NCBI GenBank assembly: GCA_008632985.1
Contig: QPGO01000091.1
Coordinates: 248,001-312,000 of the forward strand
Length of the DNA stretch: 64,000 bases
Reading direction: 5' to 3'
DNA from: Psammoneis japonica
Lineage: Eukaryota
The notes under the pieces: generated by a model
Told to the model about the DNA's origin: nothing
Databases searched by the model: none
What the model saw: only the letters and a program-made list of their open reading frames with translations
Translations under genes and position numbers: made by a program
Shown here: positions 7,220-44,192 of the stretch, in pieces
Layout of the letters: each line of letters begins with the position of its first letter
Numbering within the stretch: position 1 is the first letter of the stretch

Positions 7220-8297
7220 TTAAGCATTCTTTTTCTCCTTTGAAATTCTCCACTTGAACGCAACGAATCGTCGGAGAAAGACTTGCAGAAACAACACCAG
7301 AAAGAGACCGTACATTATTCCCATTTGCTGCACCGTTTCTTTTTGTACGACGCATCCAGGAATATCCTCCACATAGGAAACCCAATAGAAGAACGGCGTC
7401 AAGGCCACGCCCACCACCATTTGTGAAATTTGAGCAATGGTAATCCACTTGGGATTGAACCAAGCCGGTTTGGCACGGATCGACATTAAAAAGTAGTAAA
7501 AGTACATGATGGAGTGAACCCCGTAGTTCATGGTGACAATAAAGATACCCATGGTAGGAAACTTGTTGTATCCGTGCCACAAAAGGTAAAAGACAGTGGC
7601 ATGGTGAAACCAGTGAAGAAAAATGAGCTTCTTTTTGTGGATAATGATGAAGAATGTATCCAAGAGCTCACTGTAATAAAGATTGAGACGCGGGAAGAAA
7701 GAGCGAGTATACTGAGAACGACACAAGCCACATATCATTCATACTCATCAAACTCATTTTAAGGAATACGTACGGCATTTTGGAAAGAGTAAAGAGTTGT
7801 CCCCACAGTCCGGAACTACCACTGCCACCGGTGCTAAATGGATCCAAACACAAGCACGTGCGCCAATCGTAGTAATAAAAGTTGTGAGCCAGTTGAGGTA
7901 AGGCGCGGATAAAGCCCACCAGACTGAAGACCGACAAGAGCAAGTTCCAAGCGGCCAACGCACGACGCCAGTTCCAGGCGGGTCGATTGGCAAAGTATGC
8001 ACGTCCACCAAGAATCATCAAGAAGTAACCTACAAGGACGACGTTCGGGAACCACGAATTTTCTGCCATCCAGTCTTTCACTGGAGTAGGATCATAGAAG
8101 GGCTCGAATCTGAACCAATACAAGAAATTTGGATGAGACGCTCGCGTGGCGCAAAGAAAACAACAAATTCTGCGAACTCACGGGAGATAGAATCGACCGA
8201 TTGTTTTCGGATAAAGACAGGACAGTTCCTCGTAGGGAACGCCCGCGCCATTGTGGCTCATGCACGTTCCGGTGGGGTCCGACGGGTGGAACTCCAT
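7220..8297 (-). CDS. ELO: Fatty acid elongase (GNS1/SUR4/ELO family, ELOVL6-like); exons 8297-8182, 8109-7774, 7670-7220
   Basis: Spliced product MEFHPSD...FEPFYD...LSKMPELLDTFF...FLHWFHH...MNYGVHSIMYFYY...ITIAQISQM...KEKKNA (ER-retention-like tail); GT-AG introns 8181-8110 and 7773-7671 restore the frame and the KxxExxDT motif. Confidence 0.93.
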
Positions 8298-8426: not shown

Positions 8427-11400
8427 TAGTACGCGCGGTCGCGAACTCTCGGGTACTATCCAACAATGAGAGCCCTGACTTTAACGAACCTTCATAGATT
8501 TGATACAGAATCGCCGAACGTTGCAAGCAACCAAAAATCGGTAGATTCTACACTGATGTAATTATTAATGTACAAATACTCTATAAATTTTTAAGCGGGA
8601 CAAAGTTTCCCGAAATAACGTCCTGAACTGTAGTTTCGATATTTTTGAATCATACTATTTTAACGACCACGGTTTTGGTTACCAATGATCAGCGATTTGA
8701 AAAAACCTAAATCCCTTATTACTTTCTAGGTGACGTACAAAGATGATAACTTTCTCTACAAGACCCACCATTTGGCTGGCGTTGCCGTGTAACCGTCAAC
8801 CGTCAAGCTTCCAATCGATTCATTCTCTTTGATGACGGTTTTGATCCCACTGTGCTGTTGAGTTTTGAAAATCGACAGACGAACTGTGTTGTTGTGTGCG
8901 GCACGACGGAAACAACAGGCGTCTGTTTCTCCCCAACAATGCGTAGAAAATCGCGCAAACAGCCCCAAACCACAATGAAATGAAAACTGCAACAAGAAGC
9001 AGGCCTCATTTTGTCAAACTTTCAGTGCTTGCTCACGACAAGCAAGCTGTGATGAGCCAGAATCTCTTGGCACAACATGAACTGGTGGTGGTGTGTTGCG
9101 CAGCAGCTTCCACCAAAACCATGCTCCAAGTGACAAGCTTTGCATGCTTTCATTTTGACATTCCTGAATTTGCTCAGTGCACTTTCTTGGGGCAAGCACA
9201 TGCAAACATGTGCGCTTGCCCCGATTGTTCTGCGTTGCGTCCTGTGCTTTTTGCATGTGTCCCGTTTGTGCACATGAAAGCAACTTTGTGCAGTGTCAGC
9301 AGCCAGCTCTCATTTGCCTGCTTTGGCTCACCACACAGAGCACAGGGACTTCACACAGCGCAGCTCTCTTTTGGCGTTTGTCTGGAAGTCATTCCCGTCA
9401 CACTGCGCAGAACCCCGGCAACAACTCCAGTGCTGGCGGCAACACTCATTTTCTCTCTGAAACATGTTTCCTCATGCTGTGCACAGCCATCCACAACTCT
9501 GCTGCAGAGAAGCCCACTTTTCTGTTTGTTGCTCCTGCTTGCACTTTTTGCAGGTTTGTTTGGTTTTCAAGCATGCTAGCTTGTTGTTGCCTTCCTTTTC
9601 TGCAGGAGCACCCCTTTTCTCAGCAGAGAGAGCTGCAGCTTTTGCAAGCTTCTTGTGTTTGGCTGCTCCAACAAATCTTGGGGGGGGGTGCCATGCCAGT
9701 GAAAAACAAGGAGCTGTGGTGCAAATCATGAGCCAAGTGAGCACACCAGATTTTGAACAAAAACTGATCTTTGGAAGCAGAGATTCTCACCACAGCAATC
9801 TTTTTGTCTGCCTTTTGTTGCTGAAGTTTGTCATTTTGTTGTGCAGAGGAGGAGAGGCATGGAAAGAGCACCCCCACCCTTGCTCCTCTTGTTGTTGCTT
9901 GCCACAGTGGTGTGAAGAGATCACACCACCAGAGTTGAGTGTGATGGCTGGTGCTGGCCAAACTCATTTTTGTGTGTGTGCTCCTTTTCTCTCAAGGTTC
10001 TTCTCTTGCTGGCCCCACACCACCACAATGCAGCAAGCAAATTTCCAAGAAATGGGGAGCAGTGTGCCCACCATTGCTCACACACAAACTGTGCTTTGTG
10101 CACATCAAGTGACATGTTTTTTGAAAATTGTGGTTGATTTTGGCCAAATCAACCTGTTGTTTAAAAATTGCATCAGATTGCCCTGGGTTGCACCAAATTG
10201 CAAGGCAAATTTTCCCAAGAAGTGATGCAATGTGCACTGTTCTTTCAGCAACATCTGCTGCTCATGGCTGCTGGCTTGTGGCTTGTGTGCTGGATGATGT
10301 GGTGACTGAACACCATGCCTGTGTCAAGACACACAGATCCACATTTTGAACATGGACACACCACACCATGATTGTTGAAGATTGTCCTGCTTTGATGTGA
10401 CTGCACACAATGCTCTCAGATGCTGCAGCAGCCTGCTCAAAACATGGTGTGTGGTGGACAACAACTGGATGGCACGCCAGCACACATGTTGCCAACAAAC
10501 AACTGAGGATGCACGCAAATGCCTTGCAATGCAGGCCTTCTAGACAGAGGCAAAAGTGTGCAACACAAGCGCACAAGTTGGGCAAGCCCACACAACTTTT
10601 GCACTCAGCTAGCCCACTGAGCAGATCATGCATTGAGAACATGATTGCAAGCACTGCACACTCAACTGCCTCCCACAAAGTCAAGTAAAGTGTGCAAAAA
10701 GACTTTGCACACAAAGCTGTGCATTGTGCAGCACTTGCTCAGATCCAAGATGATCTTGGAGCAAAGAAGCCATTTGTTGATGTGACAGACAAGGAGAAGA
10801 GTTCTTTGTCCTGCAACTTGTAAAAAAACAACTGACATCACCGCCAGAAAATCCATTTTTGTGAAGAGGAGAACCTCTCCCACCTGGAGAGATGAGCCAG
10901 CCAAAATTTGCAGTCACACCCTTTGAGGTCCTCTGTCATCCAGATTGGGCAGCAGCTGCACGGATGGAGAAGACAACCAAAATTGACATTTTTCACATTT
11001 TCCCTCTCATTGTGGTGTCTTGCTGAGCAAGTTCACACATCTCACTTCACTTGAGCTGCTGCAGAAGCACTCCAGATCTCATGCATTTTGGAGACATTTG
11101 TGGCACAAGGCAAATCCCACACCTTTTCACCTGGATGATTTTGAACCCATGCCAACCCAGATGCAACCAACAGACACCACAGCTCTTTCAGCTGCAGCCA
11201 GCTTGGCCAAACAATCTGATGAGCAGGACTGTCCCTTGGTGTTGATGCCATGTGCCAAAATTTCCTTCCTTGTCTCAGAAGGGATGCAACTCTTGACACT
11301 CAAATGCTTTGTTCATCTGTGATCTGTGTTTGTGACTGAGCACTTCTTGCTGCCATTTCAATCACACTGCTGTTGTCTTCAAATGGTTTTGACAGAAAAA

Positions 11401-14400
11401 GCTCTGTTGCTTGAGTTCATTGGGCACATTTCCATGGAAGAAACAGCTTCTTGTTGCAAAAAGCATGATGAACCAGTGCACTCAGATTGTGGTGTGCTGC
11501 TTGGGCTGTTTCTCAGTCCACAGCTGACATTTTGTAAGAGTTTGGGCAGCCAAGTTGCAGTGTGCCTGCCCATGATGCTGCAGTTCCTTGTTTCCACTGA
11601 AGCAAGTGCCCACATGCAAATTCAAGGTCCTTGTCTTTGACAGGCTTTGGAGTTGTGCCCTTCTTGTTCCTGCCTGGTCTTGCACAAGCACCTGCCAAGC
11701 CACCGGGAGTCACTTTTCCATGCTTTGCCTTCAAATCCACCACAAAACTGTGTGCACTGGTGGGTGGTGTGATCAGTGCTGCTCTTCTGCAAGATGCACA
11801 TTTTTCCAATGACTCAGCTTTCCAACAACCCATCTGCAATTGACAGCGTTGCCAAAGGAGGCCAACCTGGAGCACCTCAACAATGTTTTGTGCCACAGGA
11901 GCAGCCTTTGGCACAGCACTTGGCAAATCCAATTATGAGGCCTTGAGAATGTGGTTGATTGAGAGTGCATTCTGTGTCAAATGCACTGTGCACCATTGTT
12001 TTTCTTTCTAACAACATTGATGCCCAGAAATTTTTGCACATCTCCTTCCACCATGATGTCCAGCTTTGTCTCTTTTCTGAGCAGCTCTTCGATTGCCTTG
12101 TTTTGTCTCCCGTCATCTTTGTCAAGGCCAGCAGCAACAGGCAAAATGTCACATCAGCGCATGAGAGATGAGGCATCTTTCCATGACAGAACTCACACTT
12201 GCATTTCAACAGAGTTTTGTCATTGCTTCCATCAGAGTTGGCTTCTGCACTGCCTTGTCCATTTGCTCTGTTGGCACACTGACACCACTTGGCAGCTCCC
12301 AACACTCAGCACCCCCTTTGAGATCCTTCTGGAGACAAAGTTGCAAGCACAGCACCACCTCCTGTCTCTTTTGGCACATTTGGAAGAGCTTGCAGCTCCC
12401 CTGACTTTTCATCAACAGTTTGATTGCTCTGACATTGTGACCAAGTGGCCAAGCAGCCAAGCAATTCACCGCTGGCAATGAACCTGTTTGGAGGGCAGAG
12501 ATCAAACTTGGCTTGCAACACTGGCAACTCAACCCCATGATTGCCAGCGGGCATGACCCAAGAAGAAGTTCGCAAAAGGAGCACCTCTTTTTCACCTTTT
12601 TGGACATTTTTGAAGCACAACTCTTCACAACTGAAATCACAAAGTCATGCCCAAACTCCATGGTGAGCAAGGCTTGTGTGCTCACCAAGTTTCTTTGATC
12701 ATGGAGGCAAATGCAGTGTGCCACAACAGCTCTTTTTGGTCAGAAGTGATCAAATCAATGGCAACCTCTGAAAAGCTTGAGCTGGGCTTGCAACAAGAAG
12801 GTCTGTCAAATGCCAGGTCAGGCATCAGGCAAGAGGCCCCAACCATTGAAAAACAGCTTTTGCAAGCAAGGGTGAAATCACATTGAGCCATCATTGCAGC
12901 ACGACCAACACAAAAAATTCATGCCATGCAATGCCAACAATTGACATGGCACACATTGCAAAGCATGCAAGCTTCAATCAAAAGAGCTTTCAAGAAGAGG
13001 ATGGTCATCAAGCTGCAAGTTCTGCAACTGGAGCATGCCACTTCATTGGCAACACCCCACAAAACAGCATGATTTAGGAAGAAGTTTGTGAAAGAATGCC
13101 TCCCACTCACATTTGGACATTTTTGAAGCACAGTGCTTCATCTGAACTGACAACATGCTGCACTTTTTCATCACCTTGTTCTTCACCACTTTCAGAAGGT
13201 TCAATGTTTTGCACCCCTCAGGAGCACAAACCGCCAATCTCTGGAGCCAAATCATCTTCAACTCTGCTTCTGATGGCTTCTCTTTGAATCAGAGAAAATT
13301 GGCAAAGTTTGCCTCCCAATCATGCACAACATCATGTTGGCTGGCATGCCGTGCAACCGTCAAGGATTGGAGTCAACAAAGGTTTTGATCCACATGATGA
13401 ACTTGGCCAGAAGCAACAATGCACAGAAAATTGTGCAGACAGCCCCAAGCCACAACTGGGTGAAAACTGCCAGAAGCAGACCTTTCATCAGACTTTGAGC
13501 ATGCTTGCTCATGGCAGAGAAGCTGTTGTGAGCCAGAAAATCTCTCAGAGCACAGTGTGAGCTGGCATTGCACAGCTTCTAAAACTGCACTCTAGACAAT
13601 GAGCTTTGCACATTGTCACTTGCACATCCCTGAGCCCACTCAGCATGCTTTGGAGCAAGCATGCACAAACACACTTGTTCAGCAAGTCCTGTGTCATGGC
13701 ATGTGTTGTGCACAAGAGCAACTCCTCTGCAGGGTGTTGGCAGCCAGCTGCTGCTGATGTTGCCTGCTTGGCTTGCCACACAAAATGTGTGGGGATTTCA
13801 GACAGCACAGCTCTCTTGCTTTTGACACCTGTCTGGAAGTCATCTGCTGGCTTGTGCCAGATGATGTGGACCATGCCCAGTCAAGACACACACAAATCAA
13901 AATTTTGAGCATGGACACACACGTGATTGTCAAATGTTGTTGTTCTGGTCTTGTGCAACTGCATGACACCCCCAGATGGTGCTGCAGCAGCCTGCTCAAA
14001 ACATGGTGTGTGTTGTGGACAACAACCTGATGGCGCACCAGCAAACATGGCACCAAAACAAATGGCCAGCACCAGCAGCCAAATGCCTTGTGATGCAAGC
14101 CTCTTCTGCTGGTGGTGAAAGTGCACAAAACAAATGCACATGTTGGGCAAACCTGCACAATTTTGCACTCAGTGCACAGAGCAGGCAGCAGATTGGCGTG
14201 CATCAAGAACATGAAAGAGATGACGTTGCAGCAAAGAACAAGCCATTTGTTGTCAACAAACATGGAGCTCTTTGTCCTGCAATTTGGGAAAAAACCAGCT
14301 GACATCACACAATCAGAACATTCATTTTTGTGCAGAGGAGCATCTCCCTGAAGCAATGAGCAGTTCAAATTTGCACAGACACAGCATTTGGGGTTGACTG

Positions 14401-15259
14401 TCATCAAGATTGGGCAGCTGTGCTGATGGAGCAGAAGACAACCAGAGCTCAACTGACACATTTTCACAGCCACTCCCTGTCATTGTGGTGTCTTGCTGAG
14501 CAAGTTCACAAATCATCACTTGAGCTGCAAAAACATGCCAGATTCCATGCACTTTTGAGAGATGTGTGGCAGGACAAAGCCCCCTCACCTTGTTGCATTT
14601 TCACACGGGTGATTTTGAGGGCTGCTTGCCAACCCCAAGGATGCAACCAATGGACACCACAGCTCTTTCAGCTGCAACCAGTTTTGTGAAACAATTGGGT
14701 GGCCAGTCTTGATGTGTGGTGTGCTAAAATTTCCTTCCTCTTGTCTCAGAAGGGGCACAACTTGACATTCAAGTGTGTTGTTCATCCATGATCTGTGCTC
14801 ATGAGCACTTGCCATTTCAAGCACAGTGCTGTTGTCTTCAGACAGTTTTGAGTTTTGACAGAAACAACTCTTTCACTTGAGTTCATTGTGCACTTCCATG
14901 GAAAGGACAGCTTTTTGCAAGGAGCACAATGAGCCAGTGTGCTCAGATCATGGTGTGCTGCTTGGGCTGTTTTTCAGTCTGCAGCTGACATTTCCAGAGA
15001 GTTAAATGGCCAAATTGCACAACTGCATTCCCATGTTGTCCTCCCTTCTTGTTGCCACTGAAGTGAGTGCCCACATGCAAAATTTAAGGACCTTGCCTTT
15101 GACAAGCTTCAGAATTGTGTCCTTCTTCTTCCTGGTCTTGCACAAGCACCTGCCAAGCCAATGGGAGTCATTTTTCTGTGTGGGCTTTGTTCTCAGATCT
15201 GCCATGAACTGTGTGCATTGGTGGGTGGCTGGTGGGTGCAGCACTGCTCTTCTGCAAGC
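8427..15259. mobile_element. Repeat copy A (6.8 kb) of a degenerate, unclassified element; nearly identical to 17389-24202
   Basis: Direct alignment with copy A' at an offset of about 8960 bp; starts TAGTACGCGCGGTCGCG; identity ends at ...CTTCTGCAAGC; interior depleted of TpA and CpG. Confidence 0.85.
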
Positions 15260-16689
15260 CATCTGCTTTTGTCGAATTTCTCGGCCGCTCAAGTTCTGGG
15301 ACATTTTCTTTGGCAGATCCCACACTCCGTCTGTAGAAAAATCCCTGTCTTGCTCCACTTCTTCTTCATTCGGAGGATGGCTGGAAGGGTTATACGCAGA
15401 ATCTGCATCCAACTTTACCCCCACAGACACGCGTATTGGCACTCGATTTCTGTCATCTTTTTTCCTCGACCTTTTGCGCCGGTGTGCAGTTTCCCATGGA
15501 AGCACGTTGTTCGCTTCTTCCACCATTTTTGAACTCCAATCTTTTTGAATGAATGCACCCGAGCGCTCACCAACGCACGCAGGAGACTGACAGAATTGGC
15601 CATTGAATGCTGCTGCTTTGACACGACGAACAAAATGACCCAAAGATGCGCGGCCACCTGGCGGGGGGGCGACAACAAATTTTGTGTTGGAATCAATCTT
15701 CTTCAAATTTTCCATCAAACAGGCAGTGTCAGTTTGGTGTTGCTTTGCAGGGCCAAGTGGGGACACTTCCAATTCGACTCCCACCCTTTCATCCTTGACC
15801 AGTTCTGTTCCACAACCTGCTTCCACGACTTGAGCTCTTCGATTGGACGACGCGGATGATTTTGGTTTCTTCGGCTTCTTGCAGCAAGACAGACAAGATC
15901 AAGGATCACCAAGGTGACTTTCCCTTGGCTGTCGCATCGGCGTTCTGCCACATGGTCTGCCGCCATTCGCCAAGACAAATCTGAATTCACGGGCTGCAAA
16001 ACAACCTTCCTCGTTGTCTTGAAGGGTTCCTCTGGCAGTTTAGGTTCAGATCGTGAGAAGAGAACTGCACTCGTTTTGTTGATGTCCGTGAGTGCAAGGT
16101 CCTTGCAAGATTCGATTGAACACATGAAATCATTTGTGGCGTCCTTGACATCACTGAGTGAGGAATGGAAGTGCAAACCAAGATTGTGAACGGTTTCACC
16201 TTGGTTGTTGTTGAGTGGGTGGTCACCAAACACCGGACTTGACTTCGTTTGGTGTAGCGAGAGACGCACTGCAACTGGAACATCTGAAGCTGCCTCCATC
16301 TCGTTTTCATTGGCAGCATCAAACTCCTCGGCTGTCATGCATCCACCAGTCAAATGCTGACTCAAATCCTCATGTTGTCCAATGTCAGCGCGTTCACTAG
16401 AAGAATCAATGGAAGAGGAATCACTGGAGGATTCGCTTGATGAGCTGCAAGTGCTTTGGATTTCGATGTTGACGAAAGGACTCCGATTCTCTTTGTCAGC
16501 ATTCGTCGCAACGGCATCGGTGCTTTCCTCCGTCGACGTGTCAACAATGGACTTTGCTTGGCGTTTCTTGGTGGAGCTGTTACACTTCCTTTTATTGCGG
16601 TTGAAATCTTCCTCTTCTTTTCGAGATTCGTCTGCTTCCCGTTGCTTTTGGGACAACACACGCTTGTGGGGAGATCTGGTTGACCGCAT
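15260..16689 (-). pseudogene. Segment B: long, mostly intact ORF of unknown (probably TE) origin, Tyr-eroded and truncated at its 3' end by copy A
   Basis: ATG at 16689 (MRSTRSPHKRVLSQ...), acidic/Ser-rich N-terminus, one frameshift near 15740-15800; the 430-aa ORF 15715-17007 has no Tyr while CpG is abundant. Confidence 0.55.
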
Positions 16690-17388
16690 GTCCGATGTAG
16701 CGTGATCTTTTCGAGACCACAAAGAAGAGATTCGATCAAAGAAGTGTGAGCAAAGAGACGAAAAGGATGAATGAACATCAAAAGACCACACGAGTGCGAC
16801 CGACATTTCTCTCCACAAAACAAACAGACAACATGCACAAGACAGGGGATGATTTTTGCATCTACAACAAAGAGATGACAGCAATGGCACGCAACAGAGG
16901 AGGTGCATTGAACGAATGAACATCAAAGTGTGGATTGTGTCAATTCCATGTGTTTTGGTGTTTCTTGTCGATGCGAGAGAACGATGTTTCTCGACACAGC
17001 CCCCCACTCACAGCACACCCAAGACACAGAAAACTTTTCGTGACTGTGGTCAGTCGATGTCAGCAAAGGCAGTCATCAGATGAAGTGAAATGAGCGAACA
17101 AACATCCGAGTGTGGGTTTTGCCGCTCAGAAATGGCCAAGACAAAAGCAAAAAGACCCATCTTTCGATTTCTGCACAACCACAACGCCGTTTCTCGCCAA
17201 ACCAAGGCTCTCACCTAACAAGTCGACCTCCCAAAAGCAACATCCGTGTCTTCAATGAACGAAAACGATGAAGAATGGGTCAAACAAGGCCGAGTGTGGG
17301 TCGGCGCAGCGTCATCTCCAAAAAAACAACTTCACGTTCCGAAAAAAAGTCTCGCCGCGCTTAATCCCACGGATCGCGCGAAAAGCAA

Positions 17389-20300
17389 TGGTGCGCGTGG
17401 TCGCGAACTCTCGGGCACTGTCCAACAATGAGAGCCCTGACTTTAACGAACCTTCATAGATTTGATGCAGAATCGCCGAATGTTGCAAGCAACCAAAAAT
17501 CGGCAGATTCTACACTGATGTAATTGTCAATGTACAAATGCTCCATAAATTTTTAAGCGGGACAAAGTTTCCCGAAACAACGTCCTGAACTGTAGTTTCG
17601 ATGTTTTTGAATCACACTGTTTTAACGACCACGGTTTTGGTTGCCAATGATCAGCGATTTGAAAAAACCTAAATCCCTCACATTGCTTTCTGGGTGACGT
17701 ACAAAGATGACAACTTTCTCTACAAGACCCACCATTTGGCTGGCGTTGCCGTGTGACCGTCAACCATCAAGCTTCCAATCGATTCATTCTCTTTGATGAC
17801 GGTTTTGATCCCACTGTGCTGTTGAGTTTTGAAAATTGACAGACGAACTGTGTTGTTGTGTGTGGCACGACGGAAACAACAGGCGTCTGTTTCTCCCCAA
17901 CAATGCGTAGAAAATCGCGCAAACAGCCCCAAACCACAATGAAATGAAAACTGCAACAAGAAGCAGGCCTCATTTTGTCAGACTTTCAGTGCTTGCTCAC
18001 GACAAGCAAGCTGTGATGAGCCAGAATCTCTCAGCACAACATGAACTGGTGGTGGTGTGTTGCGCAGCAGCTTCCACCAAAACCATGCTCCAAGTGACAA
18101 GCTTTGCATGCTTTCATTTTGACATTCCTGAATTTGCTCAGTGCACTTTCTTGGGGCAAGCACATGCAAACGTGTGCGCTTGCCCCAATTGTTCTGCGTT
18201 GCGTCCTGTGCTTTTTGCATGTGTCCTGTTTGTGCACATGAAAGCAACTTTGTACAGTGTCAGCAGCCAGCTCTCATTTGCCTGCTTTGGCTCACCACAC
18301 AAAGAGCACAGGGATTTCACACAGCGCAGCTCTCTTTTGGCGTTTGTCTGGAAGTCATTCCCGTCACACTGCGCAGAACCCCGGCAACAACTCCAGTGCT
18401 GGCGGCAACACTCATTTTCTCTCTGAAACATGTTTCCTCATGCTGTGCACAGCCATCCACAACTCTGCTGCAGAGAAGCCCACTTTTCTGTTTGTTGCTC
18501 CTGCTTGCACTTTTTGCAGGTTTGTTTGGTTTTCAAGCATGCTGGCTTGTTGTTGCCTTCTTTTTCTGGAGGAGCACCCCTTTTCTCAGCAGAGAGAGCT
18601 GCAGCTTTTGCAAGCTTCTTGTGTTTGGCTGCTCCAACAAATCTTGGGGGGGTGCCATGCCAGTGAAAAACAAGGAGCTGTGGTGCAAATCATGAGCCAA
18701 GTGAGCACACCAGATTTTGAACAAAAACTGATCTTTGGAAGCAGAGATTCTCACCACAGCAATCTTTTTGTCTGCCTTTTGTTGCTGAAGTTTGTCATTT
18801 TGTTGTGCAGAGGAGGAGAGGCATGGAAAGAGCACCCCCACCCTTGCTCCTCTTGTTGTTGCTTGCCACAGTGGTGTGAAGAGATCACACCACCAGAGTT
18901 GAGTGTGATGGCTGGTGCTGGCCAAACTCATTTTTGTGTGTGTGCTCCTTTTCTCTCAAGGTTCTTCTCTTGCTGGCCCCACACCACCACAGTGCAGCAA
19001 GCAAATTTCCAAGAAATGGGGAGCAGTGTGCCCACCATTGCTCACACACAAACTGTGCTTTGTGCACATCAAGTGACATGTTTTTTGAAAACCTGTTGTT
19101 TAAAAATTGCATCAGATTGCCCTGGGTTGCACCAAATTGCAAGGCAAATTTTCCCAAGAAGTGATGCAATGTGCGCTGTTCTTTCAGCAACATCTGCTGC
19201 TCATGGCTGCTGGCTTGTGGCTTGTGTGCTAGATGATGTGGTGACTGAACACCATGCCTGTGTCAAGACACACAGATCCACATTTTGAACATGGACACAC
19301 CACACCATGATTGTTGAAGATTGTCCTGCTTTGATGTGACTGCACACAATGCTCTCAGATGCTGCAGCAGCCTGCTCAAAACATGGTGTGTGGTGGACAA
19401 CAACTGGATGGCACGCCAGCACACATGTTGCCAACAAACAACTGAGGATGCACGCAAATGCCTTGCAATGCAGGCCTTCTAGACAGAGGCAAAAGTGTGC
19501 AACACAAGCGCACAAGTTGGGCAAGCCCACACAACTTTTGCACTCAGCTAGCCCACTGAGCAGATCATGCATTGAGAACATGATTGCAAGCACTGCACAC
19601 TCAACTGCCTCCCACAAAGTCAAGTAAAGTGTGCAAAAAGACTTTGCACACAAAGCTGTGCATTGTGCAGCACTTGCTCAGATCCAAGATGATCTTGGAG
19701 CAAAGAAGCCATTTGTTGATGTGACAGACAAGGAGAAGAGTTCTTTGTCCTGCAACTTGCAAAAAAACAACTGACATCACCGCCAGAAAATCCATTTTTG
19801 TGAAGAGGAGAACCTCTCCCACCTGGAGAGATGAGCCAGCCAAAATTTGCAGTCACACCATTTGAGGTCCTCTGTCATCCAGATTGGGCAGCAGCTGCAC
19901 GGATGGAGAAGACAACCAAAATTGACATTTTTCACATTTTCCCTCTCATTGTGGTGTCTTGCTGAGCAAGTTCACACATCTCACTTCACTTGAGCTGCTG
20001 CAGAAGCACTCCAGATCTCATGCATTTTGGAGACATTTGTGGCACAAGGCAAATCCCACACCTTTTCACCTGGATGATTTTGAACCCATGCCAACCCAGA
20101 TGCAACCAACAGACACCACAGCTCTTTCAGCTGCAGCCAGCTTGGCCAAACAATCTGATGAGCAGGACTGTCCCTTGGTGTTGATGCCATGTGCCAAAAT
20201 TTCCTTCCTTGTCTCAGAAGGGATGCAACTCTTGACACTCAAATGCTTTGTTCATCTGTGATCTGTGTTTGTGACTGAGCACTTCTTGCTGCCATTTCAA

Positions 20301-23300
20301 TCACACTGCTGTTGTCTTCAAATGGTTTTGACAGAAAAAGCTCTGTTGCTTGAGTTCATTGGGCACATTTCCATGGAAGAAACAGCTTCTTGTTGCAAAA
20401 AGCATGATGAACCAGTGCACTCAGATTGTGGTGTGCTGCTTGGGCTGTTTCTCAGTCCACAGCTGACATTTTGTAAGAGTTGGGCAGCCAAGTTGCAGTG
20501 TGCCTGCCCATGATGCTGCAGTTCCTTGTTTCCACTGAAGCAAGTGCCCACATGCAAATTCAAGGTCCTTGTCTTTGACAGGCTTTGGAGTTGTGCCCTT
20601 CTTGTTCCTGCCTGGTCTTGCACAAGCACCTGCCAAGCCACCGGGAGTCACTTTTCCATGCTTTGCCTTCAAATCCACCACAAACTGTGTGCACTGGTGG
20701 GTGGTGTGATCAGTGCTGCTCTTCTGCAAGATGCACATTTTTCCAATGACTCAGCTTTCCAACAACCCATCTGCAATTGACAGCGTTGCCAAAGGAGGCC
20801 AACCTGGAGCACCTCAACAATGTTTTGTGCCACAGGAGCAGCCTTTGGCACAGCACTTGGCAAATCCAATTATGAGGCCTTGAGAATGTGGTTGATTGAG
20901 AGTGCACTCTGTGTCAAATGCACTGTGCACCATTGTTTTTCTTTCTAACAACATTGATGCCCAGAAATTTTTGCACATCTCCTTCCACCATGATGTCCAG
21001 CTTTGTCTCTTTTCTGAGCAGCTCTTCGATTGCCTTGTTTTGTCTCCCGTCATCTTTGTCAAGGCCAGCAGCAACAGGCAAAATGTCACATCAGCACATG
21101 AGAGATGAGGCATCTTTCCATGACAGAACTCACACTTGCATTTCAACAGAGTTTTGTCATTGCTTCCATCAGAGTTGGCTTCTGCACTGCCTTGTCCATT
21201 TGCTCTGTTGGCACACTGACACCACTTGGCAGCTCCCAACACTCAGCACCCCCTTTGAGATCCTTCTGGAGACAAAGTTGCAAGCACAGCACCACCTCCT
21301 GTCTCTTTTGGCACATTTGGAAGAGCTTGCAGCTCCCCTGACTTTTCATCAACAGTTTGATTGCTCTGACATTGTGACCAAGTGGCCAAGCAGCCAAGCA
21401 ATTCACCACTGGCAATGAACCTGTTTGGAGGGCAGAGATCAAACTTGGCTTGCAACACTGGCAACTCAACCCCATGATTGCCAGCGGGCATGACCCAAGA
21501 AGAAGTTCGCAAAAGGAGCACCTCTCTTTCACCTTTTTGGACATTTTTGAAGCACAATTCTTCACAACTGAAATCACAAAGTCATGCCCAAACTCCATGG
21601 TGAGCAAGGCTTGTGTGCTCACCAAGTTTCTTTGATCATGGAGGCAAATGCAGTGTGCCGCAACAGCTCTTTTTGGTCAGAAGTGATCAAATCAATGGCA
21701 ACCTCTGAAAAGCTTGAGCTGGGCTTGCAACAAGAAGGTCTGTCAAATGCCAGGTCAGGCATCAGGCATCAGGCAAGAGGCCCCAACCATTGAAAAACAG
21801 CTTTTGCAAGCAAGGGTGAAATCACATTGAGCCATCATTGCAGCACGACCAACACAAAAAATTCATGCCATGCAATGCCAACAATTGACATGGCACACAT
21901 TGCAAAGCATGCAAGCTTCAATCAAAAGAGCTTTCAAGAAGAGGATGGTCATCAAGCTGCAAGTTCTGCAACTGGAGCATGCCACTTCATTGGCAACACC
22001 CCACAAAACAGCATGATTTAGGAAGAAGTTTGTGAAAGAATGCCTCCCACTCACATTTGGACATTTTTGAAGCACAGTGCTTCATCTGAACTGACAACAT
22101 GCTGCACTTTTTCATCACCTTGTTCTTCACCACTTTCAGAAGGTTCAATGTTTTGCACCCCTCAGGAGCACAAACCGCCAATCTCTGGAGCCAAATCATC
22201 TTCAACTCTGCTTCTGATGGCTTCTCTTTGAATCAGAGAAAATTGGCAAAGTTTGCCTCCCAATCATGCACAACATCATGTTGGCCGGCATGCCATGCAA
22301 CCGTCAAGGATTGGAGTCAACAAAGGTTTTGATCCACATGATGAACTTGGCCAGAAGCAACAATGCACAGAAAATTGTGCAGACAGCCCCAAGCCACAGC
22401 TGGATGAAAACTGCCAGAAGCAGACCTTTCATCAGACTTTGAGCATGCTTGCTCATGGCAGAGAAGCTGTTGTGAGCCAGAAAATCTCTCAGAGCACAGT
22501 GTGAGCTGGCATTGCACAGCTTCTAAAACTGCACTCTAGACAATGAGCTTTGCACATTGTCACTTGCACATCCCTGAGCCCACTCAGCATGCTTTGGAGC
22601 AAGCATGCACAAACACACTTGTTCAGCAAGTCCTGTGTCATGGCATGTGTTGTGCACAAGAGCAACTCCTCTGCAGGGTGTTGGCAGCCAGCTGCTGCTG
22701 ATGTTGCCTGCTTGGCTTGCCACACAAAATGTGTGGGGATTTCAGACAGCACAGCTCTCTTGCTTTTGACACCTGTCTGGAAGTCATCTGCTGGCTTGTG
22801 CCAGATGATGTGGACCATGCCCAGTCAAGACACACACAAATCAAAATTTTGAGCATGGACACACATGTGATTGTCAAATGTTGTTGTTCTAGTCTTGTGC
22901 AACTGCATGACACCCCCAGATGGTGCTGCAGCAGCCTGCTCAAAACATGGTGTGTGTTGTGGACAACAACCTGATGGCGCACCAGCAAACATGGCACCAA
23001 AACAAATGGCCAGCACCAGCAGCCAAATGCCTTGTGATGCAAGCCTCTTCTGCTGGTGGTGAAAGTGCACAAAACAAATGCACATGTTGGGCAAACCTGC
23101 ACAATTTTGCACTCAGTGCACAGAGCAGGCAGCAGATTGGTGTGCATCAAGAACATGAAAGAGATGACATTGCAGCAAAGAACAAGCCATTTGTTGTCAA
23201 CAAACATGGAGCTCTTTGTCCTGCAATTTGGGAAAAAACCAGCTGACATCACACAATCAGAACATTCATTTTTGTGCAGAGGAGCATCTCCCTGAAGCAA

Positions 23301-24202
23301 TGAGCAGTTCAAATTTGCACAGACACAGCATTTGGGGTTGACTGTCATCAAGATTGGGCAGCTGTGCTGATGGAGCAGAAGACAACCAGAGCTCAACTGA
23401 CACATTTTCACAGCCACTCCCTGTCATTGTGGTGTCTTGCTGAGCAAGTTCACAAATCATCACTTGAGCTGCAAAAACATGCCAGATTCCATGCACTTTT
23501 GAGAGATGTGTGGCAGGACAAAGCCCCCTCACCTTGTTGCATTTTCACATGGGTGATTTTGAGGGCTGCTTGCCAACCCCAAGGATGCAACCAATGGACA
23601 CCACAGCTCTTTCAGCTGCAACCAGTTTTGTGAAACAATTGGGTGGCCAGTCTTGATGTGTGGTGTGCTAAAATTTCCTTCCTCTTGTCTCAGAAGGGGC
23701 ACAACTTGACATTCAAGTGTGTTGTTCATCCATGATCTGTGCTCATGAGCACTTGCCATTTCAAGCACAGTGCTGTTGTCTTCAGACAGTTTTGAGTTTT
23801 GACAGAAACAACTCTTTCACTTGAGTTCATTGTGCACTTCCATGGAAAGGACAGCTTTTTGCAAGGAGCACAATGAGCCAGTGTGCTCAGATCATGGTGT
23901 GCTGCTTGGGCTGTTTTTCAGTCTGCAGCTGACATTTCCAGAGAGTTAAATGGCCAAATTGCACAACTGCATTCCCATGTTGTCCTCCCTTCTTGTTGCC
24001 ACTGAAGTGAGTGCCCACATGCAAATTCAAGGACCTTGCCTTTGACAAGCTTCAGAATTGTGTCCTTCTTCTTCCTGGTCTTGCACAAGCACCTGCCAAG
24101 CCAATGGGAGTCATTTTTCTGTGTGGGCTTTGTTCTCAGATCTGCCATGAACTGTGTGCATTGGTGGGTGGCTGGTGGGTGCAGCACTGCTCTTCTGCAA
24201 GC
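17389..24202. mobile_element. Repeat copy A' (direct duplicate of 8427-15259), continuing to about 25420
   Basis: Near-identical to copy A apart from TpA/CpG-type transitions, a deletion of about 25 bp (copy A 10128-10152) and small indels. Confidence 0.85.
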
Positions 24203-25420
24203 ACATCTTTCCAGTGACTCAGCTTTCCAACAACAACCCATTTGCAGTTGACAGTGTTGCCAAAGGAAGCTGAGCTGAAGCACCTTGATGGTGTCTTGCC
24301 ACCAGAGCATCTTTTGGCACAGCACTTGGCAAATCCATTCATGAGAAATTGAGAATCTGGATGATTGACAGTGTGGTTCTGTCAAATGCATTGTGCACCA
24401 AAATTGTTCTCACAATGTTGATGCCCAGCAAATCTTTCTCATCTCCTTCCACCATGATGTGTCCAGCTTTGCCTCTTTGCTGAGCTCCTTGATCACCTTG
24501 TTTGTTCCATCTTTGTCAAGGCTGGCAACAGCAGATGTCATTGGCATGTGAGAGATGAGGCATCTTTCCATTGTGGAAACTCATGCCAATTTCTGGTTGC
24601 CATTGGGGTCCTCAAATGCACAGAGCACCTTTGGCACCAACAAGACTTTAGATTGGTCTTGCCGAACCACAAAGCTCAACAATGCAAGCTTTCACTTTTG
24701 CTTCATCAGTCTTGTTGCTGAAATTTTGTTGACCAGCCACCACTTGTTCAACACTTTGCTGGCTTGTTTTCTTGGGGGATGTTCACATTTCAACAGAGCT
24801 TTGTTGTTGCTTGTGTCATCACTTCCTTTGGCCTGCTCACCAGCTGGCTTTTGCACCCTGATCCATTCACCCCCCTTGACACACTGACTCCACTTTGTGA
24901 CCCCCTCAAACTCACCCTCTGAGGTCCTTCCAGAGATTGAGTTGCAAGCCAGCACTGCCTCCTGTCTCTTTTGGCACATTTGGAAGAGCTTCCAGTTGCC
25001 CTGACTTTTCATCAACAGTTTGGTTGCTCTGACATTGTGACCAAGAGGCCAAACAATTCACCACTGGCAATGAACCTGTTTGGAGGGGGGAGAGATCAAA
25101 CTTCTTGGCTTGCAACATTGGCAACTCAACCCCATGATTGCCAGCGGGCATGACCCAAGAAGAAGTTTGCAAAAGGAGCACCTCTCTTTCACCTTTTTGG
25201 ACATTTTTGAAGCACAATTCTTCACAACTGAAATCACAAAGTTCTGCACTTCTTTGTCATCTTGTTCTTTGTGACTGTCAGAAAGTCCAACCCTTTGCAA
25301 CCCTTGGGAACACAAGCCATCAATCTCCAGAGCCACACCATCTTTCTAATCTGATTCAATGGCTTCTCTTAAACCGGAAAAAATTGGCAAAGTTTGCCTC
25401 CCAATCATGTGCAACACTGT
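22420..25420. repeat. Older, more diverged internal repeat unit of the A element
   Basis: Shared blocks recur, e.g. GGACATTTTTGAAGCACAA(C/T)TCTTCACAACTGAAATCACAAAG at about 12602, 21539 and 25199; AAATTGGCAAAGTTTGCCTCCCAATCATG at about 13296, 22240 and 25381; GCTGCAGCAGCCTGCTCAAAACATGGTGTGTG at about 10422, 13981, 19361 and 22925. Confidence 0.75.
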
Positions 25421-27628: not shown

Positions 27629-28043
27629 TCGTCTGATTGAAAAAGAGGGAAACAGAACAACTGGGGACTTAAGACCAAAGAAAAATCCAAAATGATGGCG
27701 GCGAAATGGCCACGCTCGCTCCGACTCCTCACGATGGAGAGTGCGCTCGCTCCACTCTCCACCCGCGCGCGCTCGGCGCTCAGACGAACAATGGCACATG
27801 CGCTGCTGCTGCAAAAACAACTGACGGGAGATCGTTGGATTGCCAACCTTGGACGCCTGTTGAATGTCTAATAGGAGGGCTCTTTTTTACCATGCCATCT
27901 ATCTTAGGATACTGCAGCGAATAGAAACGAGACACCGGCAGCTAGTAGCTAGATAGCACGCCAGCGAAAGCGATCAGGCAGAGCACTTCTCTTTCTCCTC
28001 TTCAAGATACGAACTCGTGTGCAGAGAGAGCGATTCCGCTGAC

Positions 28044-30853: not shown

Positions 30854-31096
30854 GCCAGTCTCATTTTGTTTGTGTCAAATGCCCAGCACTGAAAATCATG
30901 TCCAGCACTGTTTGAAGCTGTTTTGCTGGACTTTTTTGGCAGTTTTGGATGAAAGGCATGTCACACAACAATTGAGCCAGCCTCATTTTGTTTGTGTCAA
31001 ATGTTCAGCACTGAAAATCATGCCCAGCACTGTTTGAAGCTGTTTTGCCAGATTTTTTTGGCTGTTGCACAAAAGGCATGTCACGCGACAATTGAC
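30854..31096 (+). repeat. Two-copy tandem repeat, period 122 bp
   Basis: GCCAG(T/C)CTCATTTTGTTTGTGTCAAATG...CAGCACTGAAAATCATG.CCAGCACTGTTTGAAGCTGTTTTGC at 30854 and 30976. Confidence 0.85.
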
Positions 31097-31208
31097 AATG
31101 TCGCTGTGAGTGAAGGCAAACCCTCCTGCACAGCATGCACACAAGTTGGGGCACCCAGCCATGCACTCACTGAGAGTGATCCACTGGGGCAGAGGGCGGT
31201 GTCTCATC

Positions 31209-41899: not shown

Positions 41900-42059
41900 A
41901 TTATGATCAAGGTGTTGCGACAACGGCACACAAACAGCCACAGCGCGAGGAAGGTGTTCCCTCACACAAAACACCACCCAGTCGTGCGACACCGCTCTTT
42001 AAGGATCATTAGGGAACATTCCCTCGGAGTCAGTACTGCTTTCAGGTAGACTTCTACTT

Positions 42060-44190: not shown

Positions 44191-44192
44191 CG

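What the first reader, a model, noticed from the sequence alone, without database searches (positions are those of the whole stretch)
8427..17775. Reverse-RIP-like system: polarised TpA->TpG/CpA hypermutation caught between two copies of a repeat
Seen directly: a hand alignment of 8427-8810 (copy A) with 17389-17775 (copy A') gives 20 TpA->TpG or TpA->CpA differences, 3 CpG->TpG/CpA differences, one 2-bp indel and no other substitutions. Examples: GGGTACTATC->GGGCACTGTC, ATTATTAATG->ATTGTCAATG, AAATACTCTATA->AAATGCTCCATA, CATACTATTT->CACACTGTTT. About 20 of 32 TpA sites changed against about 3 of 23 CpG sites, and A' carries the TG/CA state each time. TG and CA products are the same A->G event on the two strands. 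Established: 5mC deamination explains the CpG loss, and fungal RIP creates TpA (CpA->TpA); neither destroys TpA. Inference: this genome has a repeat/heterochromatin-targeted A:T->G:C mutator specific for TpA, possibly a genome-defence system. I know of no description of this in diatoms, but could not check the literature.
Basis: partly seen in the sequence, partly recalled or inferred. Interest (0 to 1): 0.97.

Follow-up and report, generated by a model that had tools for sequence, protein, structure and literature searches.

The report
TpA-destroying hypermutation tracts in a diatom
In this diatom, silenced stretches of DNA have had almost every TA and CG changed to TG or CA, and a recent duplication has caught the TA-specific change part-way, much like a hypermutation first reported in 2026 in an unrelated alga.

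Summary
There is one 2-bp indel and nothing else.

The "repeat" is really the edge of a 6.8-kb direct duplication (8429-15264 vs 17391-24208, 98.6% identical). That edge is also the border of something much larger. 53% of the window lies in tracts with TpA o/e 0.04 and CpG o/e 0.19, and CpA/TpG rises by the same amount that TpA and CpG fall.

One tract holds a decayed Ty3/gypsy pol. At 36 Tyr positions of an intact relative it has 0 Tyr, 14 Cys and 3 His, so TA loss is the derived state.

Copy A' lies between an old tract and a TA-stripped copy of a high-copy repeat. Copy A, with the same sequence, lies next to a gene and is untouched. Targeting therefore follows position, not repetition.

My reading is a domain-targeted TpA->TpG/CpA mutator, about 1000x background, plus slower CpG decay. 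The same signature was shown experimentally in Bigelowiella natans (2026 preprint). I found no diatom report.

Polarity at the edge itself is inferred. Copy A's composition leaves a RIP-like rival at about 8%.

The parts
8427..8810 (.). Copy A edge. An unconverted, AT-rich intergenic island upstream of the ELO gene, with 32 TpA and 23 CpG.
17389..17775 (.). Copy A' edge. The same sequence, with 20 of 32 TpA and 3 of 23 CpG turned into TG/CA. 12 TpA remain, mostly in T-flanked contexts.
8429..15264 (.). Copy A of the 6.8-kb direct duplication. From about 8800 onward it is fully converted tract.
17391..24208 (.). Copy A' of the duplication.
15265..17388 (.). Spacer between the copies. It is TA-stripped (14 TpA in 2,124 bp, TA/AT 0.12) but keeps its CpG (o/e 0.7-1.1). 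About 16225 to about 17310 is a high-copy repeat (k-mer depth 280-1740 against about 45 for single copy). Other copies in runs X1/X2 carry TA or CG where this copy has TG/CA.
1..2940 (.). Converted tract (TpA o/e 0.05, CpG o/e 0.22).
8751..17450 (.). Converted tract (TpA o/e 0.06, CpG o/e 0.34). It includes copy A's interior and the spacer.
17671..27880 (.). Converted tract (TpA o/e 0.04, CpG o/e 0.17). It includes copy A's partner A' from its interior onward.
29711..32420 (.). Converted tract (TpA o/e 0.06, CpG o/e 0.34).
35941..38890 (.). Converted tract (TpA o/e 0.06, CpG o/e 0.19).
42051..47900 (.). Converted tract (TpA o/e 0.07, CpG o/e 0.18).
44617..46968 (-). Decayed Ty3/gypsy pol (RT, RNase H, integrase) inside a tract. 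Tyr codons have become Cys or His, and Arg codons have become His, Gln, Cys or stop.
54631..55350 (.). Short, partly converted tract (TpA o/e 0.13, CpG o/e 0.67).
7220..8177 (-). ELO (GNS1/SUR4) fatty-acid elongase gene with normal composition. Copy A's edge lies in its upstream region.

Best explanation
The diatom genome that this window comes from has a mutator that destroys TpA. It acts on defined chromosomal domains: transposon-derived DNA, other silenced DNA, and short stretches enclosed by them. In these domains the A of 5'-TA-3' is changed to G on either strand, so TA becomes TG or CA, at roughly 1000 times the background rate until almost no TpA is left. Sites with T 5' of the TA (TTA/TAA) are the most resistant and ATA/TAT the most susceptible.

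A slower, separable loss of CpG to TpG/CpA affects the same domains. This is the ordinary decay of methylated CpG.

The two 385-bp copies are a natural experiment. After a 6.8-kb duplication, copy A kept its place upstream of an active gene and stayed unchanged. Copy A' ended up between an old converted tract and a copy of a high-copy repeat, and lost 20 of its 32 TpA and 3 of its 23 CpG.

Shown here: the spectrum, the tracts, the derived nature of TA loss inside a tract, the context bias, and the dependence on position.

Inferred: the polarity at the edge itself, and the targeting signal, which is probably a heterochromatin-like state that a transposon insertion can nucleate. The chemistry is also inferred: I favour enzymatic adenine deamination to inosine in DNA (about 55:45 at best), with thymine modification as the alternative.
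For: 1. Spectrum. In the edge, 20 of 23 substitutions are TA(A) vs TG/CA(A'), 3 are CG(A) vs TG/CA(A'), and 0 run the other way.

2. Tracts. 34,080 of 64,000 bp lie in 7 tracts with at most 3 TpA per 300 bp. TA-free gaps reach 1,132 bp (P about 2e-19 at the normal TpA density).

3. Mass balance. In tract cores vs normal regions, TpA is 0.31% vs 3.79% of dinucleotides and CpG is 1.07% vs 5.66%, a combined loss of 8.07 points. CpA+TpG is 22.87% vs 14.76%, a gain of 8.11 points.

4. Polarity inside a tract.
- One ORF matches RT_RNaseH_2 at E=1e-13.
- tblastn of the intact relative P0127 covers 44617-46968.
- At the 36 aligned Tyr positions of P0127 the window has 0 Tyr, 14 Cys and 3 His. Among 5 intact relatives the figures are Tyr->Tyr 320 of 467 and Tyr->Cys 1 of 467.
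- 21 of 48 Arg positions are His, Gln, Cys, Trp or stop.
- All 3 Tyr of P0124 in the aligned stretch are Cys, encoded TGT/TGC.
- 79 of 79 related gypsy loci from metagenomes have TpA o/e 0.52-1.06.

5. One process in the old tracts and in the edge.
- In tract cores, the base 5' of the T at the 93 surviving TpA is T in 48% and A in 7%. At the 1,000 TpA of normal regions it is T in 20% and A in 30%.
- Tract-to-normal count ratio (residual count in tract cores over count in normal regions): TTAA 19/33 vs ATAT 0/96.
- The 12 TpA retained in A' show the same bias: A flank 2 of 24 (p=0.012) and TTAA 3 of 12 (p=0.006). Converted sites score higher on the tract-derived scale (Mann-Whitney one-sided p=0.04).

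6. Substrate logic. In the duplication's interior, where TpA is already gone, TA differences are 3 vs 3. The restriction of the differences to the edge therefore needs no extra assumption.

7. Contiguity. The spacer next to A' is also TA-stripped. Of the 31 printed difference rows at 15486-17279, 20 are window TG/CA vs reads TA, 6 are window TG/CA vs reads CG, 5 are other and 0 are the reverse. At some sites nearly all copies carry TA (1608 of 1608, 2154 of 2217 and 4865 of 5423 depth).

8. Rate (my arithmetic). -ln(12/32)=0.98 per TpA. The background is 13 other substitutions in about 6,460 bp for two lineages, or 0.001 per lineage. The ratio is about 1000x.

9. Precedent. In mutation-accumulation lines of Bigelowiella natans, all but one of 231 mutations in two integrated viral regions were A->G or T->C on TpA, at more than 1000x the background rate (preprint 10.64898/2026.01.13.699255).
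Against: 1. No outgroup exists for the edge itself, so its polarity is inferred.

2. Composition alone leans the other way. Copy A's edge has TpA o/e 0.92 (98.6th percentile of 504 normal 384-bp windows). Its TpG+CpA o/e of 0.85 and its (CpA+TpG)/(ApC+GpT) of 0.75 are below all 504 windows, and its TpA/ApT is 1.10. These are values a RIP index would flag. A' looks typical (17th, 86th and 47th percentiles).

3. The TA-rich stretch starts at the duplication boundary: 2 TpA per 100 bp to the left and 7-11 to the right. This is softened by unduplicated intergenic islands of the same make-up (6641-6760: 22-23 TpA and 17-20 TpG+CpA per 200 bp; also 39221 and 61601).

4. The context tests in the edge rest on 32 sites, with p values of 0.006-0.06.

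5. The 'normal' regions are only a proxy for what the tracts once looked like.

6. Only 1 of 135 tract ORFs has a family match, so most tracts are of unknown origin. The large tract has only duplicate-level read depth, so it is not a high-copy repeat.

7. The read evidence consists of Logan contigs of one sample with no library on record. Only 40 of 203 difference rows were printed, and the letters of the A' edge were not among them.

8. The metagenome control was retrieved with peptide patterns of which 4 of 6 contain Tyr, so converted copies could not have been found.

9. No enzyme, methylation data or chromatin data are available here.
Confidence: 0.8

Rival explanations
1. RIP-like polarity. 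The ancestral edge looked like A'. Copy A then gained 20 TpA by C->T at CpA/TpG, as in fungal repeat-induced point mutation. Separately, A' lost 3-5 CpG.
For: Copy A's edge is a compositional outlier in the RIP direction and A' is typical. TpA/ApT is 1.10 and (CpA+TpG)/(ApC+GpT) is 0.75. The TA-rich stretch begins at the duplication boundary. Diatoms carry DNMT4 enzymes related to fungal RID, with unknown function (PMC9998398, passages).
Against: - Under this reading, CpA/TpG sites mutated at 20 of 83 in the edge but 3 of about 1,900 in the interior of the same copy (p=4e-26). That needs an ad hoc boundary at the tract edge.
- The other copy shows 0 such changes, whereas RIP hits both copies.
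- The TpA sites shared by both copies have the survivor-type flank bias, not the normal one.
- No other sign of TpA gain exists in the window, while TpA loss is proven in the gypsy pol.
- Unduplicated islands with copy A's composition exist.
- Two different mutators on two copies are needed where one suffices.
Confidence: 0.08
2. Same phenomenon, different chemistry. The primary lesion is on thymine, not adenine. An example would be TET/JBP-type hydroxylation of T in TpA to 5-hydroxymethyluracil in silenced DNA, which then mispairs with G and gives T->C. This rival is nested in the best explanation and competes only with its chemistry step.
For: TpA is palindromic, so A->G on one strand cannot be told from T->C on the other. 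In dinoflagellates a TET/JBP enzyme makes 5hmU, which marks and silences transposons, and older work found 5hmU preferentially in TA and TC (PMC11572971, passages).
Against: There is no TpC signature here. The 13 other interior differences show no TC excess. Base-resolution mapping in Breviolum found no motif for 5hmU (PMC11071213, figure legend). 5hmU is not known to me in diatoms (recalled). That 5hmU mispairs with G often enough is also recalled, not checked.
Confidence: 0.3
3. Sequencing or assembly artefact. Modified bases in silenced DNA made the base-caller or polisher write TG/CA for TA and CG.
For: In 15262-15880 all laid depth of runs X1 and X2 (45.3 of 45.3 and 9.11 of 9.11) disagrees with the window at 10 sites. 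At each of them the window has TG/CA and the reads have TA (7 sites) or CG (3 sites). The A' edge letters were not independently seen.
Against: Contigs of X1 reproduce the TA-free tract interior exactly or nearly so: records 2 and 6 have 0 differences in 613 and 527 nt, and record 1 has 3 in 1,771 nt, all at A/A' variant sites. The disagreeing contigs start at the spacer boundary, or continue into other sequence for 830 nt in X2 record 10, as other copies of a repeat would. The gypsy pol also has frame breaks (4 separate tblastn pieces). An artefact would not be expected to reproduce an NTAN hierarchy shared by old tracts and the edge.
Confidence: 0.03
4. The edge of A' was patched by gene conversion from a third, older paralogue. 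Alternatively, the tracts are foreign DNA whose native composition avoids TA and CG.
For: The region is a tandem array of older paralogous units (66-85% identity). RNA viruses are known to avoid CpG and UpA (titles and abstracts listed).
Against: A patch from a 70%-identical paralogue would bring transversions and indels, yet 23 of 23 edge substitutions are YpR->TG/CA transitions. Native avoidance cannot explain Tyr->Cys/His in a retrotransposon pol or the closed mass balance.
Confidence: 0.02

Closest known systems
TpA-restricted hypermutation of integrated viral DNA in Bigelowiella natans (Mettrop et al., bioRxiv 10.64898/2026.01.13.699255; outline, Results and Discussion read)
   Same: Only TpA is hit, giving TpG or CpA depending on the strand. 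The rate is roughly 1000x background. It is confined to particular regions of foreign or transposon-like origin. [quoted passage not shown]
   Different: This is a different lineage (a diatom, a stramenopile; that one is a rhizarian). The evidence here is comparative, not from mutation-accumulation lines. Depletion here is at saturation over half of a 64-kb window (o/e 0.04, against Rho 0.45 for their giant-virus region). It is coupled with CpG loss. The targets include a Ty3/gypsy element, a copy of a high-copy repeat and 385 bp of ordinary host DNA caught in between. A flank preference (A>G>C>T 5' of the T) is seen here; the parts of the preprint I read report none.
Fungal repeat-induced point mutation (RIP)
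   Same: Dinucleotide-specific transition hypermutation that wrecks transposons, acts on both strands, and can reach neighbouring DNA.
   Different: RIP is C->T, mainly at CpA, and creates TpA; here TpA is destroyed. In tract cores TpA/ApT is 0.05 and (CpA+TpG)/(ApC+GpT) is 2.09. RIP is triggered by duplication and hits both copies; here one of two identical copies is untouched.
Decay of methylated CpG in transposons (diatom transposons are CpG-methylated by DNMT5a; PMC9998398, abstract and passages)
   Same: CpG->TpG/CpA loss in the same tracts (CpG o/e 0.19).
   Different: It cannot touch TpA. It is also slower and separable. The spacer and several tract borders are TA-stripped with CpG o/e still 0.6-1.1. 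In the edge, 20 of 32 TpA changed against 3 of 23 CpG.
ADAR or APOBEC hypermutation of retroelements and viruses
   Same: Deaminase-type transition clusters in selfish elements. ADARs favour U before the edited A, as stated in the preprint's Discussion.
   Different: Those marks are written on RNA or single-stranded cDNA before integration and are coordinated by strand. Here A->G and T->C alternate within 3-5 bp (for example 8454/8458 and 8564/8566). Non-transposon DNA is also changed in place. ADARs are metazoan enzymes (recalled).
ADAT2/ADAT3 deaminases that can edit DNA (amphioxus BjADAT2, PMC10354150; title and start of abstract seen in a search listing)
   Same: A known enzyme family reported to do both A-to-I and C-to-U on DNA. 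The preprint proposes it as the candidate.
   Different: No enzyme was identified here, because no genome is held for this window.

Membership tests
TpA-restricted A:T->G:C hypermutation (Bigelowiella type) | Mutations fall on TpA only and give TpG or CpA. | tested here: met
   In the edge, 20 of 23 substitutions are at TpA and the other 3 are at CpG. P=6e-12.
TpA-restricted A:T->G:C hypermutation (Bigelowiella type) | The direction is AT->GC, so TpA is the ancestral state. | tested here: met
   Met for a tract: at 36 Tyr positions of an intact relative the gypsy pol has 0 Tyr, 14 Cys and 3 His, against a control Tyr->Cys of 1 in 467. For the edge the direction is only inferred, and composition there leans the other way.
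TpA-restricted A:T->G:C hypermutation (Bigelowiella type) | Confined to particular regions of foreign or transposon origin; long-term TpA-poor, CpA+TpG-rich clusters. | tested here: met
   7 sharply bounded tracts cover 53% of the window. One holds a Ty3/gypsy pol and one a high-copy repeat. The origin of the others is unknown: 134 of 135 ORFs have no convincing family match.
TpA-restricted A:T->G:C hypermutation (Bigelowiella type) | Rate about 1000x background. | tested here: inconclusive
   The estimate is 0.98 per TpA against 0.001 per site (arithmetic). It assumes equal exposure time and the stated polarity.
TpA-restricted A:T->G:C hypermutation (Bigelowiella type) | Arises de novo in cultured lines. 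| not testable with these tools
   This needs mutation-accumulation lines or dated resequencing of this diatom.
Fungal RIP | C->T at CpA, which creates TpA and depletes CpA/TpG. | tested here: not met
   Tract cores have TpA/ApT 0.05 and (CpA+TpG)/(ApC+GpT) 2.09, and Tyr codons are lost. Only copy A's 384-bp edge has RIP-like indices.
Fungal RIP | Triggered by duplication; both copies are mutated over the duplicated length. | tested here: not met
   The edge shows 20:0 asymmetry. In the interior, TA differences are 3 vs 3.
Fungal RIP | Depends on a RID/DNMT4-type enzyme in a premeiotic stage. | not testable with these tools
   No genome is held. Diatom DNMT4 has no known function (PMC9998398).
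Methylated-CpG decay | CpG->TpG/CpA with low CpG o/e. | tested here: met
   CpG o/e is 0.19 in tract cores and 1.02 in normal regions. 19 CpG-type differences separate A and A'.
Methylated-CpG decay | The DNA is actually 5mC-methylated. | not testable with these tools
   No methylation data are available.
RNA-level or cDNA-level editing of retroelements (ADAR, APOBEC) | Strand-coordinated clusters confined to the retro-copied element. | tested here: not met
   Changes on the two strands interleave within a few bases, and host-derived flanking DNA is changed in place.

The most novel reading that the evidence does not exclude
Diatoms have a dedicated, chromatin-guided DNA editing defence that erases TpA from transposons and other silenced DNA. 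A new transposon insertion can nucleate it, and it spreads over a few hundred bases of neighbouring host DNA. It is run by an enzyme with a readable NTAN preference. It is the same system as the one just found in a rhizarian alga, so it would date back to the common ancestor of the SAR supergroup, or have spread within it. It would have rewritten a large share of diatom genomes without changing their G+C content.
Probability: 0.35. Interest if true: 0.9.

Novelty: new member of a known kind. Interest (0 to 1): 0.8.

Why it matters
TpA-specific DNA hypermutation was first reported in 2026, in one alga, with no enzyme known. A second, distant lineage showing it at saturation would turn a curiosity into a widespread genome-defence principle.

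The duplication here adds something the mutation-accumulation data do not give. Two identical sequences had different fates according to where they sit, so targeting is by domain, not by sequence or copy number.

The flank hierarchy (ATA/TAT most susceptible, TTA/TAA least) is a fingerprint that candidate enzymes can be tested against.

There are practical consequences:
- The process does not change G+C, so the tracts do not show up in G+C plots.
- It removes every Tyr codon and two of the three stop codons. That creates long false ORFs and makes transposons unrecognisable to annotation: 134 of 135 tract ORFs had no convincing family match.
- A simple TpA o/e scan would map silenced DNA in diatom genomes.
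- A natural DNA editor specific for adenine or thymine at TpA would also interest the base-editing field.

Tried and rejected
- Whole genome: none is held for this window, so no family-wide alignment or enzyme search was possible.
- Earlier notes of this scan: none.
- RNA: no RNA holder listed.
- Read laying: only 40 of 203 difference rows and 16 of 340 contig pieces were printed. Cover of the A' edge (bin 17509-17800, depth 24.6) could not be read letter by letter. Run X3 laid nothing.
- Pfam on ORFs of the duplicated region and on 135 tract ORFs of 85 aa or more: one real hit (RT_RNaseH_2). The other 10 listed matches had E values of 0.004-0.05 and were below their cut-offs.
The origin of tracts 1-2940, 8751-27880, 29711-32420 and 35941-38890 stays unknown.
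- The word-index homologue search with 'longer' lengths gave only 1 protein. The exhaustive search gave 2,084.
- Strand-resolved -2/+1 preference of the edited A in the edge: 20 events, no clear signal.
- Gradient of conversion across the A' edge: 5/7, 6/11, 6/9 and 3/5 per 100 bp, so none (counted).
- Using the older paralogous units as an outgroup was rejected. They are themselves fully converted and only 66-74% identical.
- Composition as a polarity test proved ambiguous.
- Literature: six searches found no report of TpA-specific hypermutation or TpA-free tracts in diatoms. Subscription journals and bioRxiv supplements are not covered, and the supplementary tables of the Bigelowiella preprint were not seen.

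Full report
**1. What was checked**

I read both copies, found their true extent and aligned them.
- Within 8427-8810 vs 17389-17775, 20 of 32 TpA sites of copy A are TG (12) or CA (8) in copy A'.
- 3 of 23 CpG sites are TG/CA in A'.
- There is one 2-bp indel and no other substitution.
- At no site does A' have TA where A has TG/CA.

This is far from chance. The sign test gives p=1.9e-6, and the placement on TpA gives P=6e-12.

**2. What the repeat is**

The two 385-bp pieces are the left end of a 6.8-kb direct duplication, 8429-15264 vs 17391-24208. It is 98.57% identical, with 56 mismatches and 9 gaps in BLAST. In my alignment 55 of 57 substitutions are transitions.

The duplication sits in an older tandem array of units that are 66-85% alike. 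Between the copies lies a 2.1-kb spacer, 15265-17388.

Contigs of a public run of the same organism (X1) have k-mer depth of about 90-105 over the duplicated part and about 45 over 15262-15880, as two copies against one would give. They reach 280-1,740 over about 16225-17310, so that part of the spacer belongs to a high-copy repeat.

The organism is a diatom. A glycerate kinase in the window is about 60% identical to proteins named from Seminavis, Nitzschia, Fragilariopsis and Cylindrotheca.

**3. The larger phenomenon**

A sliding dinucleotide count shows that the edge is the border of something much bigger. Seven tracts total 34,080 bp, or 53% of the window: 1-2940, 8751-17450, 17671-27880, 29711-32420, 35941-38890, 42051-47900 and 54631-55350. 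Each has at most 3 TpA per 300 bp, and TA-free gaps reach 1,132 bp.

| Observed/expected | Tract cores | Gene-bearing remainder |
|---|---|---|
| TpA | 0.04 | 0.54 |
| CpG | 0.19 | 1.02 |
| CpA | 1.86 | 1.20 |
| TpG | 1.82 | 1.17 |

The books balance. TpA plus CpG fall by 8.07 percentage points of all dinucleotides and CpA plus TpG rise by 8.11 (arithmetic). G+C does not change (0.47-0.48), which is why a G+C profile shows nothing.

The normal regions carry ordinary genes: ELO elongase, a protein kinase, an ABC-F ATPase, an NSUN2-like methyltransferase, glycerate kinase and leucyl-tRNA synthetase. The tracts end within a few hundred bases of them.

**4. Direction of change inside the tracts**

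Of 135 tract ORFs, one matched a family convincingly: RT_RNaseH_2, E=1e-13. An exhaustive search gave 2,084 relatives. The 1,004-aa relative P0127 aligns in four pieces over 44617-46968 on the minus strand, a decayed Ty3/gypsy pol.
- At the 36 aligned Tyr positions of P0127 the window has no Tyr, but 14 Cys, 3 His and 7 Phe.
- Among five intact relatives Tyr stays Tyr in 320 of 467 cases and becomes Cys in 1.
- Arg positions are His, Gln, Cys, Trp or stop in 21 of 48. That is what CGN->CAN/TGN gives.
- In the stretch aligned with P0124 all three Tyr are Cys, written TGT/TGC. Neighbouring Thr and Ile codons that would follow a T have become Ala and Val.
- The three minus-strand frames of 42000-47700 hold 3, 1 and 1 Tyr in about 1,900 codons each.
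- All 79 related gypsy loci fetched from metagenomes have TpA o/e of 0.52-1.06, median 0.75. That retrieval used mostly Tyr-containing peptides, so it could not have found converted copies.

TpA loss is therefore derived, and a TpA-destroying process exists in this genome.

**5. A sequence preference beyond the dinucleotide**

The 93 TpA that survive in tract cores are not a random sample. The base 5' of the T (equivalently, the complement of the base 3' of the A) is T in 48% and A in 7%. At the 1,000 TpA of normal regions it is T in 20% and A in 30%.

Counts in tract cores relative to normal regions run from 19/33 for TTAA to 0/96 for ATAT. An additive model with susceptibility A>G>C>T fits most of the classes.

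The 12 TpA retained in the A' edge show the same bias: A flank 2 of 24 (p=0.012) and TTAA 3 of 12 (p=0.006). Converted sites score higher on the tract-derived scale (p=0.04). The sample is small, but it ties the change at the edge to the process that made the old tracts.

**6. Why only the edge differs, and why only in A'**

In the duplication's interior TpA had already gone before the duplication. There TA differences run 3 one way and 3 the other, and CpG differences 12 and 4. One site (9068-9069) is TG in A and CA in A', as expected if one ancestral CpG or TpA was converted independently in each copy.

The only place that still had substrate was the 385-bp piece left of the old tract border at about 8800. 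In A this piece lies upstream of the ELO gene and is unchanged.

In A' it lies between the old tract and the spacer, which is itself TA-stripped (14 TpA in 2,124 bp) while keeping CpG o/e at 0.7-1.1. Where contigs of X1 and X2 differ from the window in the spacer, the window has TG/CA and the reads TA in 20 of the 31 printed rows. In 6 rows the reads have CG, 5 are other, and none is the reverse. At several sites nearly all copies of the repeat have TA.

The disagreeing contigs begin at the spacer boundary or run on into other sequence, so they are most simply other copies of the repeat. A strain or haplotype difference is also possible.

I read this as a repeat copy that was inserted or brought next to A', was silenced and edited, and drew the enclosed 385 bp into the same domain. 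Two identical sequences with different fates mean that position decides, not sequence or copy number.

**7. Two processes, different speeds**

Several places are TA-stripped but still CpG-rich: the spacer, 27251-27500, 31001-32250 and 54501-55750. In the edge TpA conversion is 20 of 32 against 3 of 23 for CpG (p=3e-4). From, the loss per TpA is 0.98 and per CpG 0.14, against about 0.001 per site per lineage for other changes. That is roughly 1000x and 140x. These figures assume the stated polarity and equal exposure.

**8. The evidence against, in full**

There is no outgroup for the edge. Judged by composition alone, copy A looks like the odd one:
- Its TpA o/e is 0.92, the 98.6th percentile of 504 normal windows.
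- Its TpG+CpA o/e is 0.85, below all of them.
- Its TpA/ApT is 1.10.
- Its (CpA+TpG)/(ApC+GpT) is 0.75.

A' sits in the normal range. The TA-rich stretch also starts at the duplication boundary. This is what a RIP-like C->T at CpA in copy A would give.

I keep that rival at about 8%, for five reasons:
- Unduplicated intergenic islands with the same make-up exist 2 kb away and elsewhere (6641-6760, 39221, 61601).
- The rival needs a mutation rate of 20 in 83 in the edge against 3 in about 1,900 in the interior of the same copy.
- It leaves the flank bias of the shared TpA unexplained.
- It needs two mutators on two copies.
- Nothing else in the window shows TpA gain.

An artefact of base-calling is unlikely (about 3%). 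X1 contigs reproduce the TA-free interior with 0-3 differences per contig. However, the library type of X1 is not on record, and the A' edge letters were not printed.

**9. Comparison with what is known**

The closest match is a 2026 preprint on Bigelowiella natans (10.64898/2026.01.13.699255; Results and Discussion read).
- In mutation-accumulation lines, 231 of 302 nuclear mutations fell in two integrated viral regions.
- All but one of those 231 were A->G or T->C, on TpA, at more than 1000x the background rate.
- The genome has TpA-poor, CpA+TpG-rich clusters.
- The authors propose an ADAT2-like adenosine deaminase.

The signature, rate and regional nature here are the same. The lineage, the saturation, the coupling with CpG loss, the transposon and host-DNA targets, and the flank hierarchy are new.

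Fungal RIP works in the opposite chemical direction and hits both copies of a duplication. Both features were tested here and not met. CpG decay of methylated transposons, known in diatoms (PMC9998398), accounts only for the CpG part.

RNA-level editing of retroelements is excluded, because the changes on the two strands interleave and host DNA is edited in place.

A thymine-modification route remains open as the chemistry. 5hmU made by a TET/JBP enzyme silences transposons in dinoflagellates and was reported to prefer TA and TC (PMC11572971, passages).

Six literature searches found nothing on this in diatoms.

**10. Verdict**

The full picture is larger than the finding: a domain-wide conversion of both self-complementary pyrimidine-purine dinucleotides (TpA and CpG) into TpG/CpA, with the TpA arm fast and specific.

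It is best filed as a new member, in diatoms, of a kind described only months ago in one other alga. Confidence in the phenomenon and its direction is about 0.8. Confidence in adenine deamination as the chemistry is no better than even.

Noticed in passing
window 15262-15880: All laid depth of runs X1 (45.3) and X2 (9.11) differs from the window at 10 sites in 619 bp. All 10 are transitions: at 7 the window has TG/CA and the reads have TA, and at 3 the window has TG/CA and the reads have CG. No window-identical contig was listed. This could be another copy of the repeat, another haplotype or another strain; it is unresolved.
   Followed up: partly
window 9068-9069 vs 18032-18033: An adjacent double difference: TG in copy A and CA in copy A'. 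This is as expected if one ancestral CpG or TpA was converted independently on opposite strands in the two copies after the duplication.
   Followed up: no
window 4501-4750: A small island with only 3 TpA per 500 bp but normal CpG (o/e 0.87), inside otherwise normal sequence. It overlaps an ORF (4487-5125) with no family match.
   Followed up: no
window 7223-8177, minus strand: The ELO (GNS1/SUR4) elongase is split over two overlapping ORFs in different frames (7671-8177 and 7223-7738). That suggests a short intron or a frame error.
   Followed up: no
window 3388-3723 vs 3749-4081: A tandem pair of units of about 335 bp, 70% identical, in normal-composition DNA.
   Followed up: no
window 31209-31506 vs 44193-44494: A 300-bp segment, 79% identical, shared by two different converted tracts. 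One of them is the gypsy-bearing tract, so this may be a piece of the same element family.
   Followed up: no
window 42050-42600, minus strand: A repeated peptide-like motif (HLAWGQQWPAS twice, in one frame) points to a short tandem repeat at the end of the gypsy-bearing tract.
   Followed up: no
loci L042 and L044 (metagenome gypsy relatives): CpG o/e is 0.12 and 0.19 but TpA o/e is a normal 0.62. In other organisms, CpG decay of this element family therefore occurs without TpA loss.
   Followed up: partly
window 63859: A single N in the assembly.
   Followed up: no
window 34683-35789 (minus) and 49773-52497 (plus): A class I SAM methyltransferase-like ORF (below the Pfam cut-offs) and an NSUN2-like RNA m5C methyltransferase lie in the normal regions. 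Nothing links them to the editing.
   Followed up: no
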